Below are positions 24,466 to 30,646 of a stretch of DNA of 30,646 nucleotides, one piece after another. Each line of letters starts with the position of its first letter. Position 1 is the first letter of the stretch. The notes under the pieces were generated by a model, which did not search any database, was not told the DNA's origin, and worked only from the letters and a program-made list of their open reading frames with translations. Origin of the DNA: Patescibacteria group bacterium (GTDB lineage Bacteria > Patescibacteriota > Microgenomatia > UBA1400 > MFAQ01); NCBI GenBank assembly GCA_038062695.1, contig JBBTWQ010000041.1:1-30646 (forward strand), written 5' to 3'. The position numbers and the translations under genes are program-made.

Positions 24466-24539
24466 TGCCGGATCGTCTAAAGGCAGGACAACAGGCTCTG
24501 AACTTGTTTATCTAGGTTCGATTCCTAGTCCGGCAGCCA
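24466..24539 (+). tRNA. tRNA-Gln(CTG), CCA encoded
   Basis: TGCCGGA...TCCGGCA-G-CCA acceptor; anticodon arm ACAGG-CT-CTG-AA-CTTGT; T arm CTAGG-TTCGATT-CCTAG; -10 TAAAAT at 24449-24454. Confidence 0.96.
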
Positions 24540-24626
24540 ACTTGGACACTGCAAGGTGTCCGTACTCTCTAAATGGACTCATACATCCTTCAAAAACCCT
24601 TATATTTTCTCTCAAGATTCGAACCG
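24532..24626 (+). repeat. 95-bp att-like module, copy 1 (overlaps the tRNA-Gln 3' end)
   Basis: Gapless alignment to 28315-28409, 72/95 identical by hand count. Confidence 0.9.
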
Positions 24627-24722
24627 TGACGATTACCCGAATAGCTGGAGGTTGAGCCTGTGGTGGGAAAAATATCGATTCCCTAGGAAAAATGTATACT
24701 TGCAACTTGAGTTTGCCTCCAG

Positions 24723-26873
24723 TTATTGAACCCAACCCCTCATTTTATAGTGCCTCAACCTCGATTTGTACATCCTGGATAGTACGGGTGTTAACTCGTC
24801 ATGATAATCGTAGATAATTCTGTTTTGGTTTCCTCTCTCGATTCTGCCAACGTATTGGATTAATTTACCTTCAAAAGAAAATGGATAGGCCAAAACAAGA
24901 GCGTCGAGAATCGGTAGGTCAAAACCTTCTCCCAATAGTTGACCTGTGGCTATTAGAATTTGGAAATTACCTTGCTGGATGGAAACCATCTTTTCTCGTC
25001 TGGATTTTACCGAATCATCACCAGTGAGGGTAATAATTTCGGCTTTCCCTCGTAGGTAGAGTGATAAAACATCTACATGGTCTTTTCTTTCGGTGAGAAT
25101 AATAGTTTTTTTGCCTTGTTTTACGAGCCCTAGAATATCTGAAACAATTTGTAGATTTCGGGTGTCGTTAAAAATGACTAGTTTTGACAATAAATCGTAT
25201 TGATCGACTCTGGGAGTAAAGGGAATATTTAGAGCAGTCGATCTAATTACTAGTTTTGTTTTTGGTTGAGAGTCACCTACTCCTGAGAATAGAGCACCAC
25301 TTACTGTGGGTTTTTGATCTAGAATGGCAACGATCGGACCAATATAGTGAAAGATAAGGGATTCGTCGTGATATTTTCGCTGTGGCGTAGCTGTGAGGCC
25401 ATAAATATATTTGGGATTAAATTGAACAATGACTTCTCTAAAAGTGGTGGCTGGAATATGGTGGCACTCGTCGATTACAATAGTGCCGACTTTGCTGGCG
25501 ATATCGGCTATCTCTGATTCATTTAATCTAGTTAGGGTCTGCATCATGGCCACAGTGATTTGCTTGCCAAGTTTCTTTTTGAAGCCACTAAATTGACCAA
25601 TTTCTTTCTTGGGTACTCCCAAGAATTGGGTAATTCTCTCTTTCCATTGAGAGAGTAGCTGGGCACGGTGAACTAAGATTAGGGCTGATAAGCTTTGTTT
25701 TTCGATTAGTGATAATCCGATGACTGTTTTGCCTCCTCCTGGAGGAGCGACAATCACGCCACTATCGTGATTTAGTGATTTATCGATAATTTCTTGCTGA
25801 TAGTCATAGGCTTCGATTTTCGATTTGAACGTAGTTTTTGGCAGATTTAGACGATCATCTTCTAGAACGTAATCAATGTTTTTTAAGTGACAGTATCCTA
25901 ATAACTGTGTTAAGAACCCACGGGGAAGGGATATCTGATCGGCTGATTCTTGAATGAGTTTGAAAAATCTTTCGGTTTTGTAAGTTGACAACCCCATTCT
26001 TTCTTTGATGACAAAACCAGGGTTGAGGAAATTAAGTTCTTTTTTGAGAAAGCTGGATAGCTCTGGAGCCAGGTCGGTTTTGGCGATGGAAATCATTTTT
26101 CCAAGATGAATGTTTAGTTTCCCGTTCTTCTTTCTGGTTATTCCCGACTTGCCTTTCAACAACTTGGTGTGCAACTTGTCGAGTTGTTTGAATGTAACTC
26201 TAGAAATACTTTTCAGATATCTCCACTGATCAGGATATGGTTCGAGAGTTTCAGGATCAACAAAAACACTTTTCCCCAATGGAATCAACGTTCCTTGTAA
26301 CGGTAGAGCAATTAAATTTCCCAAACCACCTTCCTCAAGAAAATCTTGATTTGGAAACATCCGATCGTAGCTATTTTCTTCTTGAGTTGAAAACTCAAAG
26401 GCCTGATCTAAAATTGTTTTTATGATTGTTCTGGCTTTAACTGCTGGATACCAGTCGGCAAAAAGGATCCAAACATGAGCACCATTGCCAGAACGAGAGA
26501 TCTCCAAACAAGGGACAAGACCATACTTTTGGGATTTCGCAACAAAGGCTGGAGCATCTGTTCTCCAGCTAGATTTATCAAAATCAACGACGAGCAAATG
26601 ACAATTCCCGTCAGCTCGTAGAGGATACATTCCAAGAGAATCTCTACCCTCTAAATGATTATTAATTGCTTCCATCGTTAATGGCAGAGTTGTTTTGTTG
26701 GCGAAACTGGCCATTGTGCCGCCTTTTTTCTTGTGCCCCAGAAATTCTGGCCAAGAAAATTGATAGGCTGGAGAATAACCACTTTTATCATTCTTTTCCC
26801 AACGTCTGGCGTAGACATCTCTTCTGCCAGTAAAGATCTCCATAAAAAGCTGGATTTGTCCGGTAGAAATCAT
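24723..26873 (-). CDS. AEP-like primase domain fused to a DEAD/DEAH-box (SF2) helicase (TOTE-type architecture)
   Basis: N-terminal FTGRRDVYARRW, GMYPL..., VVDFD, EISRSGNGAHVW, GNLIALPLQ; helicase motifs APPGGGKT, DECHH, TAT, QYVGRIER. Confidence 0.85.
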   Translation of the reverse strand: MISTGQIQLFMEIFTGRRDVYARRWEKNDKSGYSPAYQFSWPEFLGHKKKGGTMASFANKTTLPLTMEAINNHLEGRDSLGMYPLRADGNCHLLVVDFDKSSWRTDAPAFVAKSQKYGLVPCLEISRSGNGAHVWILFADWYPAVKARTIIKTILDQAFEFSTQEENSYDRMFPNQDFLEEGGLGNLIALPLQGTLIPLGKSVFVDPETLEPYPDQWRYLKSISRVTFKQLDKLHTKLLKGKSGITRKKNGKLNIHLGKMISIAKTDLAPELSSFLKKELNFLNPGFVIKERMGLSTYKTERFFKLIQESADQISLPRGFLTQLLGYCHLKNIDYVLEDDRLNLPKTTFKSKIEAYDYQQEIIDKSLNHDSGVIVAPPGGGKTVIGLSLIEKQSLSALILVHRAQLLSQWKERITQFLGVPKKEIGQFSGFKKKLGKQITVAMMQTLTRLNESEIADIASKVGTIVIDECHHIPATTFREVIVQFNPKYIYGLTATPQRKYHDESLIFHYIGPIVAILDQKPTVSGALFSGVGDSQPKTKLVIRSTALNIPFTPRVDQYDLLSKLVIFNDTRNLQIVSDILGLVKQGKKTIILTERKDHVDVLSLYLRGKAEIITLTGDDSVKSRREKMVSIQQGNFQILIATGQLLGEGFDLPILDALVLAYPFSFEGKLIQYVGRIERGNQNRIIYDYHDELTPVLSRMYKSRLRHYKMRGWVQ

Positions 26874-27163
26874 GGTGTGAATGATACCCCACGAGACTGA
26901 TCATAAGTAATGGCAACCGCGACGATATGCTCACAAATGCAATCGTAGCTGTATGTCACACAGGTACATGAATAGGCTGGTGACCCAATTTTGGCAAAAC
27001 CAATCGTGACTGGATAGTCACTTTTTGAGTGAACCATGGCACGGCAGCCGTTATTGAAACTTTGCAATAATTCCACCCGTTTGTTGTTTGCCAAATTTTT
27101 ACCTTCTAAGTAAATGTTCTCAACCAAATCAGAATAAATAACCGACAAGTAAGAGAAGGCCAT
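26870..27163 (-). CDS. Stand-alone SWIM zinc-finger protein
   Basis: SCTCVTYSYDCICEHIVAVA matches CxC...CxH; ATGA overlap with the helicase start. Confidence 0.75.
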   Translation of the reverse strand: MAFSYLSVIYSDLVENIYLEGKNLANNKRVELLQSFNNGCRAMVHSKSDYPVTIGFAKIGSPAYSCTCVTYSYDCICEHIVAVAITYDQSRGVSFTP

Positions 27164-27178
27164 AATTCAAAAATGTTT

Positions 27179-28231
27179 TTACTTGAAATAAGTATTGAGA
27201 GCAAACTTGTACTGGTCAGTAATGATTTGCTTGAGATAGTACAAACTATTTTGTTCGTAGAAGAGAACTAGAGCTTTTTTATAAAAAGTCTCATCGACAC
27301 TTCGGTAGGATAACGGGTAATAGTCGTGAGCCAACAAAACAGCATTGGCAAGCATACGGGCAGTTCTTTTATTTCCATCCGCAAAGGGTTGGATATAGGA
27401 AATCATAGCAATTGTAATCAGAGCTTTCTCTGGGGGGTAGGTTGCTTTATTGAGGCGAGTTACGAATTTATCCACAGCTTCCTGAATTTGCCACTGGTTG
27501 TCGAGTGGATGATAAGTAGTTCCTGTAATGCCAACAGCCTGTTTTCTTATACCGGTCGTCACGTTCAAGTCCCCGATTAAGATGTTGTGAAGTTGAGTAA
27601 TCTGGGAAAGGGTAATGTTTTTATAGTCATTTTTGTTGGCCAGTATAGTTTCAAAGGCGATTTTATGATTTAAGATCATAACAGCCTCTTCCCTTGGGTG
27701 TCCTTCTGCTTCGATCTTTTGCTTGATTAAGGTTTCGGTATCAAGTAGGGAATAGGTATTGCCCTCTATTTTTGAGGACTTCCAAGAAAGTTCGATAATA
27801 AATCTCTCGACCTCCTTCAAATAAATGTCTTTATTGGCAGCTTTTGACTCTTTATCAAAATTTTTGTAGATTTTATTTAGTTCAGATTGTTCCGCTGGTG
27901 TATACAGACCAGATAGATCTCCAAAAATATCTGAATTAAATGACTTTTTGACAAATTCCCTTTGATCCGGGTCAATCACAAAATATTTATCTAAATCAAA
28001 ATATCTCAGAAGTTTGTTCGAGTTTATTCCAGAATATTTGGTGTTTCTGCCTTCACCGTGGACAACAACCATTCCCATTTTTAGCAAATGCGCCAAGTCC
28101 CTAGCGATTGTGGGAGTGGAGGCTAGATAATCTATACCGAGCCTAGATCTAACTTCGAGCCTAGAAAGACCGTTCGACTTGTTTATTAGCTCGAGAATTT
28201 GTATTTGGCGAGGATTTATCGTATCATTCAT
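27179..28231 (-). CDS. Fic family protein with an N-terminal winged HTH
   Basis: RQIQILELI...TIARDL..L...G.V...GEGRNTKY; WKSSKIEGNTYS; IQPFADGNKRTAR Fic-like motif; start MNDT at 28231 fits the promoter. Confidence 0.92.
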   Translation of the reverse strand: MNDTINPRQIQILELINKSNGLSRLEVRSRLGIDYLASTPTIARDLAHLLKMGMVVVHGEGRNTKYSGINSNKLLRYFDLDKYFVIDPDQREFVKKSFNSDIFGDLSGLYTPAEQSELNKIYKNFDKESKAANKDIYLKEVERFIIELSWKSSKIEGNTYSLLDTETLIKQKIEAEGHPREEAVMILNHKIAFETILANKNDYKNITLSQITQLHNILIGDLNVTTGIRKQAVGITGTTYHPLDNQWQIQEAVDKFVTRLNKATYPPEKALITIAMISYIQPFADGNKRTARMLANAVLLAHDYYPLSYRSVDETFYKKALVLFYEQNSLYYLKQIITDQYKFALNTYFK

Positions 28232-28239
28232 GTACACTA

Positions 28240-28268
28240 ATCGTATCAAAATGATACGAATAGGTCAA
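28240..28268 (-). promoter_or_regulatory. Sigma70 promoter of the Fic gene with an overlapping palindromic operator
   Basis: Minus strand TTGACC (28268-28263), 17 nt, TACGAT (28245-28240) with TG extension; TCGTATCA-aaa-TGATACGA inverted repeat at 28241-28259. Confidence 0.75.
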
Positions 28269-28314
28269 GTCCTCGTTCTCCTGGAAACTGAAGCTAGGGA
28301 GAGAGTCTTTTTGT

Positions 28315-28409
28315 GGCAACCAACTTGGACATGGCCAACTGACCGTACTCTCTAAATAGATTGAAATAGCCTACTAAAACCTCTTTTAATTTGCTCAAGA
28401 TTCGAACCG
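28315..28409 (+). repeat. 95-bp att-like module, copy 2
   Basis: GGCAACCAACTTGGACA...CCGTACTCTCTAAAT...CTCAAGATTCGAACCG aligns without gaps to 24532-24626. Confidence 0.9.
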
Positions 28410-28669
28410 ACTAAATTCCCCAAAATACTCTCGAGATCTGAGGTGTCCTTTATCCTCAAGTAATTGATCCCGCAATGTCCAATTGCCCCATTTTTATCCT
28501 CGCTGTCATCTATAAGGACACACTCTTGTGGCAAGAGATTATTGGCTTTAAGGTATTGACTGAAGAACAAGCTTTCTCCATTTTCATCAAAATCACCCTT
28601 TAAAGCCCTAATGAGGCCCTTTACGAAAATCCTGAAAGTAAACTTTGGGTAAGACCGGCTAAAATGTTT
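28352..28669 (-). pseudogene. C-terminal remnant of a probable HAD-family hydrolase
   Basis: Open frame ...ALKGDFDENGESLFFSQYL...PQECVLIDDS resembles HAD motifs III/IV; no N-terminal DxD half and no ATG; the frame runs into repeat copy 2. Confidence 0.45.
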
Positions 28670-28743: not shown

Positions 28744-29211
28744 TTATTTAAAGCAAATTGAGAGAAGTACGGCGTCGTGTACGCTGCCTCTTTTTGACAT
28801 ATTAGGGTCGGGTATTTGGACGCCGTTTTCGATAACAAAGTTATGCTCAACAAGCTTTGTATCAACCGCGGCCCGATCATAAGAGCTTGAATCTTCCAAT
28901 GACCCGGCTCTCATCTTCATCACTTTTTCGAGAGCACTTCCAGGTGTGATATTGGTAAAACGAAATGATATCGGCGCACCCAGTTGCTCAACCGTATAAT
29001 ACGTGACGTGGTTTACGAGAGTACCCTCGATTCCCGTCTCGGAATCTCCCTCCAATTTTTGGTCACCCGTTTGGTAGCAATTTCTATACGTCAGAAGACG
29101 TTTGAAATATGCTGGATTCATTCCCAAGTTATTGTCCAGAAAGTTAAGAACAAAAAATCCAACCACGGTTAATAAGACCAATAACATCATGATTGGGAAA
29201 AATTTCTTCAC
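28744..29211 (-). CDS. Hypothetical protein with an N-terminal TM/signal segment
   Basis: 155 aa; MKKFFPIMMLLVLLTVVGFFVL; starts 3 nt after the upstream hydrolase stop. Confidence 0.75.
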   Translation of the reverse strand: MKKFFPIMMLLVLLTVVGFFVLNFLDNNLGMNPAYFKRLLTYRNCYQTGDQKLEGDSETGIEGTLVNHVTYYTVEQLGAPISFRFTNITPGSALEKVMKMRAGSLEDSSSYDRAAVDTKLVEHNFVIENGVQIPDPNMSKRGSVHDAVLLSICFK

Positions 29212-29214
29212 TTT

Positions 29215-30144
29215 CTATAAATATTTCTTAACTACCTCGATATATCTATTATCCCCCTGACTAGCTCGGTAATACCAATACTCGAACCCCCACAGAAGAA
29301 TTTCAGTTACCCCTATAGATGATGCTCTTTTTAGATTACTTTCCAAAAGTTCAGGCGAGATGCTTTTAGGGTTTTCCGATAGATATCTTTCCATACCCAT
29401 TTCCCATGGTTCTGCCTGGAGCTCTGCAATAATCACCGGTATGGGAGATTTCTCAACAAATGCTCGCAAGCGATCATGACTTATTCTTGGTCCGGAGGTA
29501 GTATATGATTTTCCACTACCCCGGTAATAAAGGTCCAAACCAACCACGTCTGCCAGCGACAATATTTTAGGGGCCAACCCCCTTGTTTCCAAAGTCTTAC
29601 CCCAAAGAGTCAGAAGAATTGGCCGACTATCAAGGCTTCTCACCAATTCAACCTCTTCTTTAAGAAAATCAAAAGGAAACGCTAAATTTTCCGAACCAGT
29701 CGGATCAAGCGGTTCATTTTCGACTTGCCAATGGGTGATGCATTTAAATCTTTTTAAAGCTCCTACACATTCTTTTGTAAACAACAGGGTTCTTTTTCTT
29801 GCTTCCGGACTACCTAAGTTTTTCTCTGCCAAATATGTTGGCCAGTAAAATTCTGGATATCGGGGCGACTTTACTCCTACGTTCATGATCACCGGCTGTC
29901 CTACTCTTTCGCACCGACCCAATAGACCTTCCAAGACAGAAAAATCGTACACCCCCGGTTCTCTTTCTACCTCCGGCCAATAACTGCCAAATCTAATGTG
30001 TGAAAAACCAAAACCCAAAGCCAGTTCCAAAGCGTCGTTAACGGTGATTGGGGGATTATCAGGAGGTTTGACACAATCGAGGTAATTTAAATGAGTATGA
30101 CTAAACGTAATCCCGAAACGAGCAAAAGACATTTCTTTTGTCAT
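29215..30144 (-). CDS. Clan GH-A glycoside hydrolase-like TIM barrel (beta-galactosidase-like)
   Basis: IRFGSYW..VE.EPGVYDF, GVKSPRYPEFYWP, WQVENEP (acid/base), GLDLY, IAELQAEPW (nucleophile), LWGFEYW. Confidence 0.82.
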   Translation of the reverse strand: MTKEMSFARFGITFSHTHLNYLDCVKPPDNPPITVNDALELALGFGFSHIRFGSYWPEVEREPGVYDFSVLEGLLGRCERVGQPVIMNVGVKSPRYPEFYWPTYLAEKNLGSPEARKRTLLFTKECVGALKRFKCITHWQVENEPLDPTGSENLAFPFDFLKEEVELVRSLDSRPILLTLWGKTLETRGLAPKILSLADVVGLDLYYRGSGKSYTTSGPRISHDRLRAFVEKSPIPVIIAELQAEPWEMGMERYLSENPKSISPELLESNLKRASSIGVTEILLWGFEYWYYRASQGDNRYIEVVKKYL

Positions 30145-30153
30145 AAAAATATT

Positions 30154-30645
30154 TTACAGTAATTTTTCAATAACCTCGGCATAGACTACTTCTATTGATC
30201 CCGTCGCGTCGACATGGACCAACCTCCAGTTCGGCTGATTTCCAATAATGCTGGCCCTCTCTCCCAGGTGGTCGAAATATTTTGAAAGACGGGCTAAGAT
30301 CCCCTCGATGGTGTCATCATTTCTATTCCGTCCCGTCTCACCCATCAGTCGTTCGAAACTCATCCAGCCCGGGATACGCAGGTGAACTACACTAATCGGT
30401 AAGTTTAGGTTGGCTTTGGCCAACATCGCGGCGAAATCCTGGGTTTCCTCGAGAGTTCGCAGTCCCCCGTCGAGAACCAAACCGTCGGCAACGTCATTTT
30501 GGCTAAAACGATGGACCAGAATTTTCAGTAAGGTCGCCCCGTCAAGATACGCGTGATTGGCAAACATATTGCGGCATTCATCACCGAGCGACCCCCTATC
30601 ATTTTCAGCCAGGTCGCGGATAATGTCCCCGGTGGTAACGTAAGG
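30154..30645 (-). CDS. Adenylate-kinase-like nucleoside monophosphate kinase (5' end outside the window)
   Basis: The frame extends to the window edge: PYVTTGDIIRD...SLGDECR, LVLDGGLRT, GRNRNDDT..IL.RL..Y, VDA. Confidence 0.8.
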   Translation of the reverse strand, partial: PYVTTGDIIRDLAENDRGSLGDECRNMFANHAYLDGATLLKILVHRFSQNDVADGLVLDGGLRTLEETQDFAAMLAKANLNLPISVVHLRIPGWMSFERLMGETGRNRNDDTIEGILARLSKYFDHLGERASIIGNQPNWRLVHVDATGSIEVVYAEVIEKLL

Positions 30646-30646
30646 T

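What the first reader, a model, noticed from the sequence alone, without database searches (positions are those of the whole stretch)
24532..28409. Tandem-accretion site at tRNA-Gln marked by a gapless 95-bp three-box module, with no integrase
Seen: copies at 24532-24626 and 28315-28409 (3,783 bp apart), 72/95 identical with no gaps. Identity is concentrated in box A CCAACTTGGACA (contains the palindrome CCAA-c-TTGG), box B CCGTACTCTCTAAAT and box C CTCAAGATTCGAACCG, while the fixed-length spacers diverge. Only 8 bp overlap the tRNA, so this is not a simple duplicated tRNA end. Fixed spacing with conserved boxes suggests protein-binding sites. Inference: the module is the left arm of a family of related elements that inserted one after another at the tRNA CCA end and are mobilised in trans. 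That would be an integron-like or satellite-like cassette platform.
Basis: partly seen in the sequence, partly recalled or inferred. Interest (0 to 1): 0.78.

Follow-up and report, generated by a model that had tools for sequence, protein, structure and literature searches.

The report
Recombinase-less island array at tRNA-Gln
The repeat is real and is the tRNA-side end piece of a family of mobile islands that insert one after another into the tRNA-Gln gene of these tiny-genome bacteria with a serine recombinase; in this genome both stacked islands lack that enzyme, so this is a new example of known 'tandem accretion', not a new kind of cassette system.

Summary
Copies at 24532-24626 and 28315-28409 are 72/95 identical without gaps, and the three exact boxes occur nowhere else in the window.

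The repeat belongs to a family of at least 13 copies in about 10 genomes of one order, which includes Ca. Collierbacteria. Every copy either abuts an intact tRNA-Gln or follows a degenerate roughly 20-nt tRNA 3' fragment.

In three genomes the module fills the 60-160 nt between the tRNA-Gln end and the stop codon of a converging CcrB-like large serine recombinase (LSR). In one of them a terminase-like gene follows.

A same-genus relative has an identical tRNA up to the discriminator base, no module, and the host gene that here lies 7.8 kb away. So the window holds two stacked low-GC units (3.8 and about 2.6 kb) of LSR-type elements.

Neither unit, nor the 90%-complete genome, encodes a serine recombinase. 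Public assemblies show no excised form.

The module shows no RNA structure and no codon periodicity, yet its conservation is significantly clustered in blocks.

Best reading: tandem accretion of decayed or cis-mobilisable elements, closest to the Dehalococcoides ssrA islands. Trans-mobilisation is possible but untested.

The parts
24466..24539 (+). tRNA-Gln(CTG) with encoded CCA. This is the integration target (attB side of attL).
   Evidence: ARAGORN and Rfam tRNA at 57 bits. The gene is identical to the same-genus G003 tRNA up to position 72 and differs from the discriminator base onward.
24532..24664 (.). Module copy 1: the tRNA-proximal arm of unit E1. It contains box A (24537-24548), box B (24560-24574) and box C (24611-24626).
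   Evidence: The sequence-only model R1 matches 24531-24664 at E 1.8e-28. It is 110/133 identical to the copy after tRNA-Gln in Ca. Collierbacteria G062, whereas the two tRNAs are only 51/75 identical.
24723..28249 (-). Cargo of unit E1, three genes in one direction: an AEP primase-polymerase fused to an SF2 helicase (24723-26873), a 97-aa protein (26870-27163) and a Fic-domain protein (27179-28249).
   Evidence: Pfam AEP-TOTE 1e-78, ResIII, Helicase_C and Fic. PADLOC PrimPol 4e-73, PDC-S62 and SoFic/PDC-S04. GC is about 0.40 against 0.53 upstream of the tRNA.
28240..28268 (-). Promoter-like site (TTGACC-17-TACGAT with TG) just upstream of the Fic gene. It lies outside the module.
   Evidence: Consensus scan. 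This is a pattern match only.
28298..28322 (.). Degenerate tRNA-Gln 3'-end-like stretch in front of copy 2. It is either a displaced older tRNA end or the P arm of E1.
   Evidence: Alignments A1 and A3: GAGTC...GGCAACCA is shared with tRNA-Gln 3' ends. Clearer equivalents occur in G005 and G028.
28315..28433 (.). Module copy 2: the arm of the older unit E2. It contains box A (28320-28331), box B (28343-28357) and box C (28394-28409).
   Evidence: R1 matches 28315-28433 at E 1.4e-25.
28744..30646 (-). Cargo of unit E2: a 155-aa protein (28744-29211), a 309-aa protein (29215-30144) and an adenylate-kinase-like P-loop kinase (30154 to the window end). The kinase continues past a scaffold gap to about C41:30890.
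   Evidence: Pfam ADK/AAA_17 for the kinase and no hits for the other two. The window ends at a 100-N gap. Beyond the gap lie a GH1 gene and then the syntenic CAP-domain host gene.

Best explanation
The 95-nt repeat is the core of a conserved arm of about 110-135 nt. This arm forms the tRNA-side end of a family of integrative, partly prophage-like elements found in this order of small-genome bacteria (the family includes Ca. Collierbacteria).

In intact members:
- A large serine recombinase (LSR) of the CcrB type sits at the element's edge. It is transcribed towards tRNA-Gln.
- The arm fills the gap between its stop codon and the tRNA end.
- The element brings its own copy of the last bases of the tRNA, so the tRNA stays whole after insertion.

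A later element that inserts into the regenerated tRNA pushes the earlier junction downstream. That junction is a tRNA-like fragment plus the arm. The result is a tandem array.

The window holds such an array of two units:
- E1 is 3.8 kb and carries a primase-helicase, a small protein and a Fic protein.
- E2 is about 2.6 kb and carries two unknown proteins and a kinase.
- Both lie inside a 7.8-kb low-GC insertion that a same-genus relative lacks.

Neither unit nor the genome has the recombinase. The units are therefore most likely decayed or recombinase-less (cis-mobilisable-type) remnants that are now fixed.

Shown: the repeat, the family, its tie to tRNA-Gln, the adjacent LSR in relatives, the insertion relative to a relative, and the absence of a recombinase.

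Inferred: that an LSR made these junctions, that the crossover lies between the T-loop and the discriminator base, and that the three blocks are DNA-level (protein-binding) sites.
For: - The repeat and its boxes are real and non-random.
- Family members directly follow an intact tRNA-Gln in G000, G062, G028, G060, G221 and G248.
- Orphan copies that follow a degenerate tRNA 3' fragment occur in G000, G005 (two copies, 600 nt apart), G028, G035, G283 and bin62.
- The LSR is adjacent to the module. In G028, Resolvase + Recombinase + Zn_ribbon_recom (437 aa) has its stop abutting the module, and a small-terminase-like gene comes next. It is CcrB-like by NCBIfam.
- In G221 the order is tRNA-Gln, module, then a 454-aa LSR that is 67% identical to the G028 one. 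G248 is similar.
- LSRs that converge on and overlap tRNA-Gln, tRNA-Asn or tRNA-Ser 3' ends are common in the order. 194 of 286 genomes have an LSR match.
- Insertion is shown by synteny. The G003 tRNA is identical up to the discriminator base, has no module, and its downstream CAP-domain gene lies 7.8 kb away in G000. GC falls from 0.53 to 0.40 at the tRNA end.
- Horizontal origin: module copy 1 is 83% identical to the G062 copy, while the two tRNAs are 68% identical and the cargo differs.
- The decay route is seen elsewhere. Only the last 77 codons (G035) or about 100 codons (bin62) of an LSR remain next to tRNA-Gln.
- An AEP-helicase homologue is cargo of an LSR element at tRNA-Ser in G044.
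Against: - No recombinase is present in the island or in the 90.6%-complete genome, so LSR action here is inferred from relatives only.
- Only 3 of about 13 module copies have an LSR beside them.
- Bxb1-type serine integrases use sites under 50 bp (abstract of PMC1470463). Boxes B and C lie 21-87 nt beyond the tRNA end, outside a standard half-site, and are not explained by this model.
- The far end (attR) of an LSR-bearing element could not be identified.
- The exact crossover point is unresolved. Orphan fragments point to the T-loop, while the comparison with G003 points to the discriminator base.
Confidence: 0.7

Rival explanations
1. Active trans-mobilised cassettes. The module would be a working attachment arm carried by recombinase-less units. 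An LSR supplied by a co-resident or infecting element of the same family would integrate and excise them. This would be a satellite-like or cassette-like platform at tRNA-Gln.
For: - The boxes are perfectly kept in four LSR-less copies from three genomes in two genera, while the spacers diverge.
- Cargo differs behind near-identical arms.
- G028 has a 7.1-kb recombinase-less unit directly upstream of an LSR-bearing unit with a roughly 90% identical arm, including 46 nt of exact identity.
- G005 has a unit of only about 600 nt (one 161-aa ORF) between two arms.
- The units are compact, with no visible pseudogene debris.
Against: - This genome has no LSR to act in trans.
- Logan contigs of four runs show no excised or empty form and a uniform depth across the island. 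Contigs do hide rare variants, so this is weak evidence.
- The two copies here are only 76% identical, so the events are not recent.
- LSR-stub relics in G035 and bin62 show that plain deletion produces the same picture.
Confidence: 0.2
2. The module is, by origin, the degraded 3' coding tail of the recombinase gene. Ancestral LSR ORFs ran through this stretch into the tRNA, as the G058-type and G029-type LSRs still do. The similarity between copies would then be inherited coding sequence rather than a binding platform. This concerns origin and is compatible with the main explanation.
For: - In all 3 LSR-linked copies the module's most open minus-strand frame (TVRI...FREYG...) is in frame with the LSR ORF. 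It is separated by 1 stop in G028 and by 3 in G221 and G248.
- That frame is open in copy 1, and from SVRI in copy 2, G062 and G028.
- Other LSR families in the order end inside the tRNA, with tails such as ...WLPD* and ...VAGLGLEP.
- LSR 3' stubs are retained next to the tRNA in G035 and bin62.
Against: - Substitutions show no three-base periodicity in any frame (p 0.12-0.76).
- Invariant runs of 9-11 nt (15-16 nt for the pair in this window) have no wobble variation.
- There are stops or frameshifts in G005, G221, bin62 and G060 (G060 and bin62 were hand-translated).
- nhmmer of the module against LSR 3' ends finds nothing significant, and neither does an HMM of the peptide against 229 ORFs.
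- In frame in 3 of 3 has a chance probability of about 1/27 only.
Confidence: 0.25
3. The module is a host-native feature of the tRNA-Gln locus, such as a 3' trailer, a small RNA or a terminator, and was duplicated locally.
For: It directly follows tRNA-Gln in several genera.
Against: - It is absent after the near-identical tRNA-Gln of the same-genus genomes G003 and G002.
- There is no consensus secondary structure on either strand and no Rfam match.
- No terminator-like or promoter-like site falls inside the module.
- The module is more conserved between genera than the tRNA itself.
- Orphan copies carry foreign-type tRNA fragments, for example G005.
Confidence: 0.03

Closest known systems
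Dehalococcoides ssrA-specific genomic islands (ssrA-GIs), PMC3146451
   Same: Both are tandem islands downstream of a small-RNA gene, bounded by the gene's 3' end and its direct repeats. In both, the insertion point is inferred in the T-loop and a CcrB-family serine recombinase of about 540 aa lies on the reverse strand next to attL. Both show extra nucleotide conservation in the roughly 85 bp around each repeat. Many islands (15 in that paper) lack the integration module and were discussed there as possible cis-mobilisable elements.
   Different: The target here is tRNA-Gln, not tmRNA. The repeated tRNA part is short and degenerate, whereas the conserved arm beyond it is long (100-130 nt) with three sharp blocks. 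There is no second small serine recombinase or six-gene integration module. The host is a CPR-type bacterium of about 0.6 Mb. This genome has no recombinase at all.
CIMEs and tandem accretion of ICESt1/ICESt3-type elements (Pavlovic 2004; Bellanger 2011; reviewed in PMC5704250)
   Same: A decayed element keeps attL and attR but loses its integration genes. [quoted passage not shown] The composite can be mobilised in cis.
   Different: Those systems use tyrosine integrases and conjugative transfer. Here the family recombinase is a large serine recombinase, at least one intact relative looks phage-like, and mobility of any unit is untested.
Serine-integrase prophage attP/attB (for example Bxb1, PMC1470463)
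   Same: The recombinase gene is next to the attachment site. In some copies an imperfect inverted repeat (GTCCAAG-N12-CTTGGAC in G005) is centred near the junction. I read that repeat by eye.
   Different: Bxb1 uses substrates under 50 bp and needs no flanking sites (abstract). That site size would not reach boxes B and C. Targeting a tRNA and restoring its 3' end is more typical of tyrosine integrases (this last point is from my own knowledge).
Integron (intI, attI, attC cassettes)
   Same: Units are short and promoter-poor, new insertions go in at the proximal site, and each unit has a conserved recombination arm.
   Different: There is no resident integrase next to the site and no attC-type imperfect hairpin, since no structure was found on either strand. 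Units carry their own promoter-like site and several genes. The family recombinase is a serine, not a tyrosine, enzyme.
Tycheposons of Prochlorococcus (bioRxiv 10.1101/2020.12.28.424599; details from my own knowledge, only the abstract was seen)
   Same: Both involve tRNA-targeting integrative elements that build islands in a streamlined genome, with partial tRNAs between units and recombinase-less cargo units. Primase/helicase genes are typical cargo.
   Different: The host phylum and recombinase families differ. I did not test this relationship here.

Membership tests
Tandem array of site-specific integrative elements at a tRNA gene (accretion / CIME type) | The block is an insertion relative to close relatives and interrupts conserved synteny. 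| tested here: met
   Same-genus G003 has the order tRNA-Gln, about 550 nt, then a CAP-domain gene. In G000 that gene lies 7.8 kb from the tRNA. GC is 0.40 inside the block and 0.53 outside.
Tandem array of site-specific integrative elements at a tRNA gene (accretion / CIME type) | Each unit boundary carries a direct repeat that includes the 3' end of the target gene. | tested here: met
   GGCA(G/A)CCA plus the arm is repeated at 24532 and 28315. A degenerate T-loop-to-CCA fragment lies before copy 2. Clearer fragments occur in G005, G028, G035, G283 and bin62.
Tandem array of site-specific integrative elements at a tRNA gene (accretion / CIME type) | A site-specific recombinase is encoded at the element edge in intact family members. 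| tested here: met
   A large serine recombinase is adjacent to the module in G028, G221 and G248.
Tandem array of site-specific integrative elements at a tRNA gene (accretion / CIME type) | A recombinase is present in this element or in this genome. | tested here: not met
   There is no PF00239 hit and no hit to three LSR types in G000 or in the island, including the part beyond the window. The only tyrosine recombinase is Xer-like. The genome is 90.6% complete.
Tandem array of site-specific integrative elements at a tRNA gene (accretion / CIME type) | Excision products exist (a circle and an empty site). | tested here: inconclusive
   Logan contigs of four runs show no joint between the copies. 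Contigs drop rare variants, and no raw reads were available.
Integron-like cassette platform | A resident integrase gene with an adjacent primary site, and attC-type folded recombination sites on the cassettes. | tested here: not met
   There is no integrase in or next to the array. There is no conserved hairpin in the module on either strand.
Serine-integrase attP/attL half-site | Imperfect inverted half-sites of about 20-25 bp flank a central crossover dinucleotide, and the LSR is sufficient for recombination. | tested here: inconclusive
   GTCCAAG-N12-CTTGGAC is perfect in G005, 6/7 in G062 and 5/7 in copy 1. It is absent in G221, G248 and G283 (read by eye).
Structured non-coding RNA | A conserved secondary structure with covariation, or a match to a known family. 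| tested here: not met
   RNAalifold gives 0 pairs on the + strand and 6 weak pairs without covariation on the - strand. Rfam finds only the tRNA.
Protein-coding sequence (live or recently dead) | An open frame shared by the copies, and substitutions concentrated at third codon positions. | tested here: inconclusive
   One minus-strand frame is open in 4-5 of 9 copies and is in frame with the LSR in 3 of 3 linked copies. There is no periodicity and no significant protein match.

The most novel reading that the evidence does not exclude
The three-block arm is a working, extended attachment and regulatory site. It would let small recombinase-less gene sets (down to a single gene in G005) be captured and moved at tRNA-Gln by the serine recombinases of temperate phages of these ultra-small bacteria. 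That would make it a satellite or cassette system built on a serine integrase, with boxes B and C as accessory protein-binding sites that ordinary serine integrases do not need.
Probability: 0.15. Interest if true: 0.65.

Novelty: new member of a known kind. Interest (0 to 1): 0.38.

Why it matters
Mobile elements and gene flow in candidate-phyla-radiation bacteria are poorly described. These bacteria have genomes of about 0.6-1 Mb and no obvious conjugation machinery.

This locus shows that tRNA-Gln is a recurrent landing site for serine-recombinase elements across a whole order. Defence-like cargo (primase-helicase plus Fic) and metabolic cargo enter there, and the arrays decay to recombinase-less blocks.

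The conserved arm is a practical marker for finding such islands in fragmentary metagenome bins.

If the blocks proved to be accessory binding sites, that would be unusual for serine integrases.

Tried and rejected
- **Structured RNA.** There is no consensus fold on either strand and no Rfam family.
- **Antisense pseudo-tRNA.** Box C reads GGTTCGAATC on the minus strand. I rejected this by hand because the flanking bases cannot form a T stem, and ARAGORN finds nothing there.
- **Eyeball match to G058-type recombinase tails.** I saw a resemblance to the tails (FE.., ST.., P.WLP). It was not significant by nhmmer or hmmsearch, the spacing differs (+28 against +22 codons), and I do not claim it.
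- **Exact-pattern scans of the public collections.** Scans with boxes B and C against GTDB species genomes and JGI metagenomes returned only the known copies, one new genome (bin62) and one chance hit.
- **Far end (attR) of the G028 LSR element.** I found no third copy in the remaining 31 kb of the contig.
- **Excision evidence.** Only assembled contigs were available, and they show no joints.
- **Weak model hits.** Hits in G015, G019, G024 and G026 (E 2e-4 to 9e-3) were left uncounted. The G015 hit looks like coding sequence.
- **Promoter and terminator scan.** Nothing falls inside the modules.

Full report
**1. The observation**

tRNA-Gln(CTG) lies at 24466-24539 on the + strand with an encoded CCA. 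The stretch 24532-24626 recurs at 28315-28409, 3,783 nt downstream. It does so without gaps and with 72/95 identity, or 80/110 when extended.

Among 200,000 random gapless 95-mer pairs from the window, the best was 48/95. In the whole assembly the second copy is the only other match (E 4e-16).

Boxes A, B and C each occur exactly twice in the window, at the same spacing. The clustering of identity into blocks is significant. A column shuffle gives p = 0.011 for the pair, and 0 of 20,000 shuffles reach the observed value for four copies from three genomes.

**2. The surroundings**

The window is the first 30,646 nt of a 38,404-nt contig. It stops at a 100-N scaffold gap. The assembly is 0.58 Mb in 78 contigs and 90.6% complete.

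GC falls from about 0.53 to about 0.40 exactly at the tRNA end. It rises again about 7.8 kb later.

Between the two copies lie three minus-strand genes:
- an AEP primase-polymerase fused to an SF2 helicase
- a 97-aa protein
- a Fic protein

After copy 2 come a 155-aa and a 309-aa protein without family matches, and then an adenylate-kinase-like kinase. Beyond the gap lie a GH1 glycosidase and then a CAP-domain gene.

The same-genus genome G003 has a tRNA-Gln that is identical up to position 72. It differs only from the discriminator base onward. It has no module. Its CAP-domain gene lies about 550 nt from the tRNA. The 7.8 kb in G000 is therefore an insertion.

**3. The module is a family tied to tRNA-Gln**

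Searches by BLAST, an nhmmer profile and a sequence-only covariance model found further copies.

Copies directly after an intact tRNA-Gln:
- G062, which the record title names as Ca. Collierbacteria bacterium GW2011_GWC2_44_18
- G028
- G060
- G221 and G248

Orphan copies, each preceded by a degenerate tRNA-Gln 3' fragment that starts around the T-loop:
- G000 copy 2
- G005, with two copies 600 nt apart and one 161-aa ORF between them
- G028 copy 2, 7.1 kb from copy 1, with 46 nt of exact identity
- G035, 4.2 kb from its tRNA-Gln
- G283
- bin62, 2.2 kb from its tRNA-Gln

Copy 1 and the G062 copy are 110/133 identical, although the two tRNAs are only 51/75 identical. The cargo behind them differs: nucleotide-metabolism genes in G062 and primase-helicase plus Fic here. 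The arm therefore travels horizontally with varied cargo. It is not a native feature of the locus.

**4. The recombinase**

In G028, copy 2 is followed at once by a 437-aa minus-strand gene with Resolvase, Recombinase and Zn_ribbon_recom domains. Its TAG stop abuts the module, and a small-terminase-like gene follows. NCBIfam places it nearest to CcrB.

Its closest homologues show the same order: tRNA-Gln, module, converging recombinase. These are 67% identical in G221 and 59% in G248.

More widely, 194 of 286 genomes of the order have a large serine recombinase (LSR) match. Several subfamilies converge on tRNA-Gln, tRNA-Asn or tRNA-Ser, and their last codons overlap the tRNA 3' end. One locus from an unpublished genome (G154) appeared in these lists.

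G000 has no serine recombinase by Pfam model or by three LSR queries, either in the island or elsewhere. Its single tyrosine recombinase is Xer-like.

**5. What the module itself is**

It has no consensus RNA structure on either strand. It has no Rfam match. No promoter-like or terminator-like site falls inside it.

Substitutions show no three-base periodicity in any frame, and the invariant runs have no wobble variation. The block pattern is therefore a DNA-level constraint, or it was inherited from constrained ancestors.

One minus-strand frame is open in several copies. That frame is in frame with the recombinase ORF in all three linked copies. This hints that the arm began as a coding tail, like the tails of other LSRs here that run into the tRNA.

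That origin is not supported by any significant match. I give it as a possible origin only.

Box A, together with the T-stem, forms an imperfect inverted repeat centred near the discriminator base. It is perfect in G005. This would suit a serine-integrase half-site, but it is missing in the G221 and G248 copies (by eye). Boxes B and C lie outside the site size known for Bxb1-type integrases (under 50 bp, abstract of PMC1470463) and remain unexplained.

**6. Mechanism**

The most likely mechanism (confidence 0.7) is serine-recombinase integration into the tRNA-Gln 3' end. The element supplies the tRNA's last bases plus the arm. Repeated integration gives a tandem array. In G000 the array has two units without a recombinase.

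Two relatives show how such units can arise by decay. In G035 only the last 77 codons of an LSR remain next to tRNA-Gln, and in bin62 only about 100 codons remain. Deletions that spare the essential tRNA would leave exactly such a stub or arm; this is my inference.

The rival view is that recombinase-less units are moved in trans. Evidence that fits it:
- the perfect boxes in LSR-less copies
- the G028 pair of an LSR-less unit next to an LSR unit
- the 600-nt unit in G005

Against it, there is no helper recombinase in this genome and no excised form in the contigs of four public runs. I put it at about 0.2.

**7. Comparison with what is known**

The closest described system is the set of ssrA genomic islands of Dehalococcoides (PMC3146451). 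Shared features:
- tandem islands
- a T-loop insertion point
- a CcrB-family serine recombinase on the reverse strand next to attL
- extra conservation around the repeats
- many islands without the integration module

The general concept is tandem accretion with cis-mobilisable elements (PMC5704250). The integron comparison fails on its defining features.

This is a new member of a known kind, in a little-studied lineage. The sharply blocked arm is the one feature not yet explained.

Noticed in passing
L145:6915-6945 and L145:8364-8394 (= contig C41:30914-30944 and 32363-32393, just beyond the window): A 31-nt exact direct repeat of the 3' end of the CAP-domain host gene flanks a low-GC GH1 glycosidase gene (454 aa). 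This looks like a separate insertion event at the far end of the same island, with duplication of a gene end rather than of the tRNA end.
   Followed up: partly
window 30593-30646 and contig C41:30647-30800 (L145:6594-6800): The window ends at a 100-N scaffold gap inside the kinase gene. About 54 nt are repeated on both sides of the gap, so the kinase gene is probably intact and the gap is an assembly overlap artefact.
   Followed up: partly
L004:1600-1720 (G003), with matches in G000 contigs C4, C18 (two), C61, C57 and C23: A unit of about 45 nt (GAGCTGGTCGAG..GTGTCGATC..TCAAATCGACCCG) is repeated twice after tRNA-Gln in G003. It occurs at 88-93% identity on at least six G000 contigs. It looks like a dispersed REP-like repeat family in this genus.
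   Followed up: no
L163:5030-12475 (G044 contig C3): A 538-aa large serine recombinase overlaps the 3' end of tRNA-Ser(GGA). Four small genes and a 745-aa AEP-helicase (34% identical to the window's) follow it. Primase-helicases of this type therefore ride on serine-recombinase elements in this order.
   Followed up: partly
L032:8566-16547 (G062, Ca. Collierbacteria contig LCIE01000014): Behind the module lies a dense cluster: two Ham1, two QueC-like, an aminotransferase, a thymidylate-synthase-like protein, a P-loop kinase, a dCTP-deaminase-like protein, a nucleoside deoxyribosyltransferase, PfkB, NUDIX and HAD. It looks like a nucleotide or DNA-base modification island.
   Followed up: no
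L035:8079-8852 (G028): Past the recombinase's TAG stop, the same frame stays open through the module and the tRNA-like fragment into a 223-aa ORF of the neighbouring unit. This may be chance, or it may be a trace of an ORF that spans the attachment site in the circular form.
   Followed up: no
window 24537-24539 compared with L004 (G003): The G000 tRNA-Gln has discriminator G73 and an encoded CCA. The otherwise identical G003 gene has A73 and CCC. The inserted element appears to have changed the discriminator base of the tRNA.
   Followed up: partly
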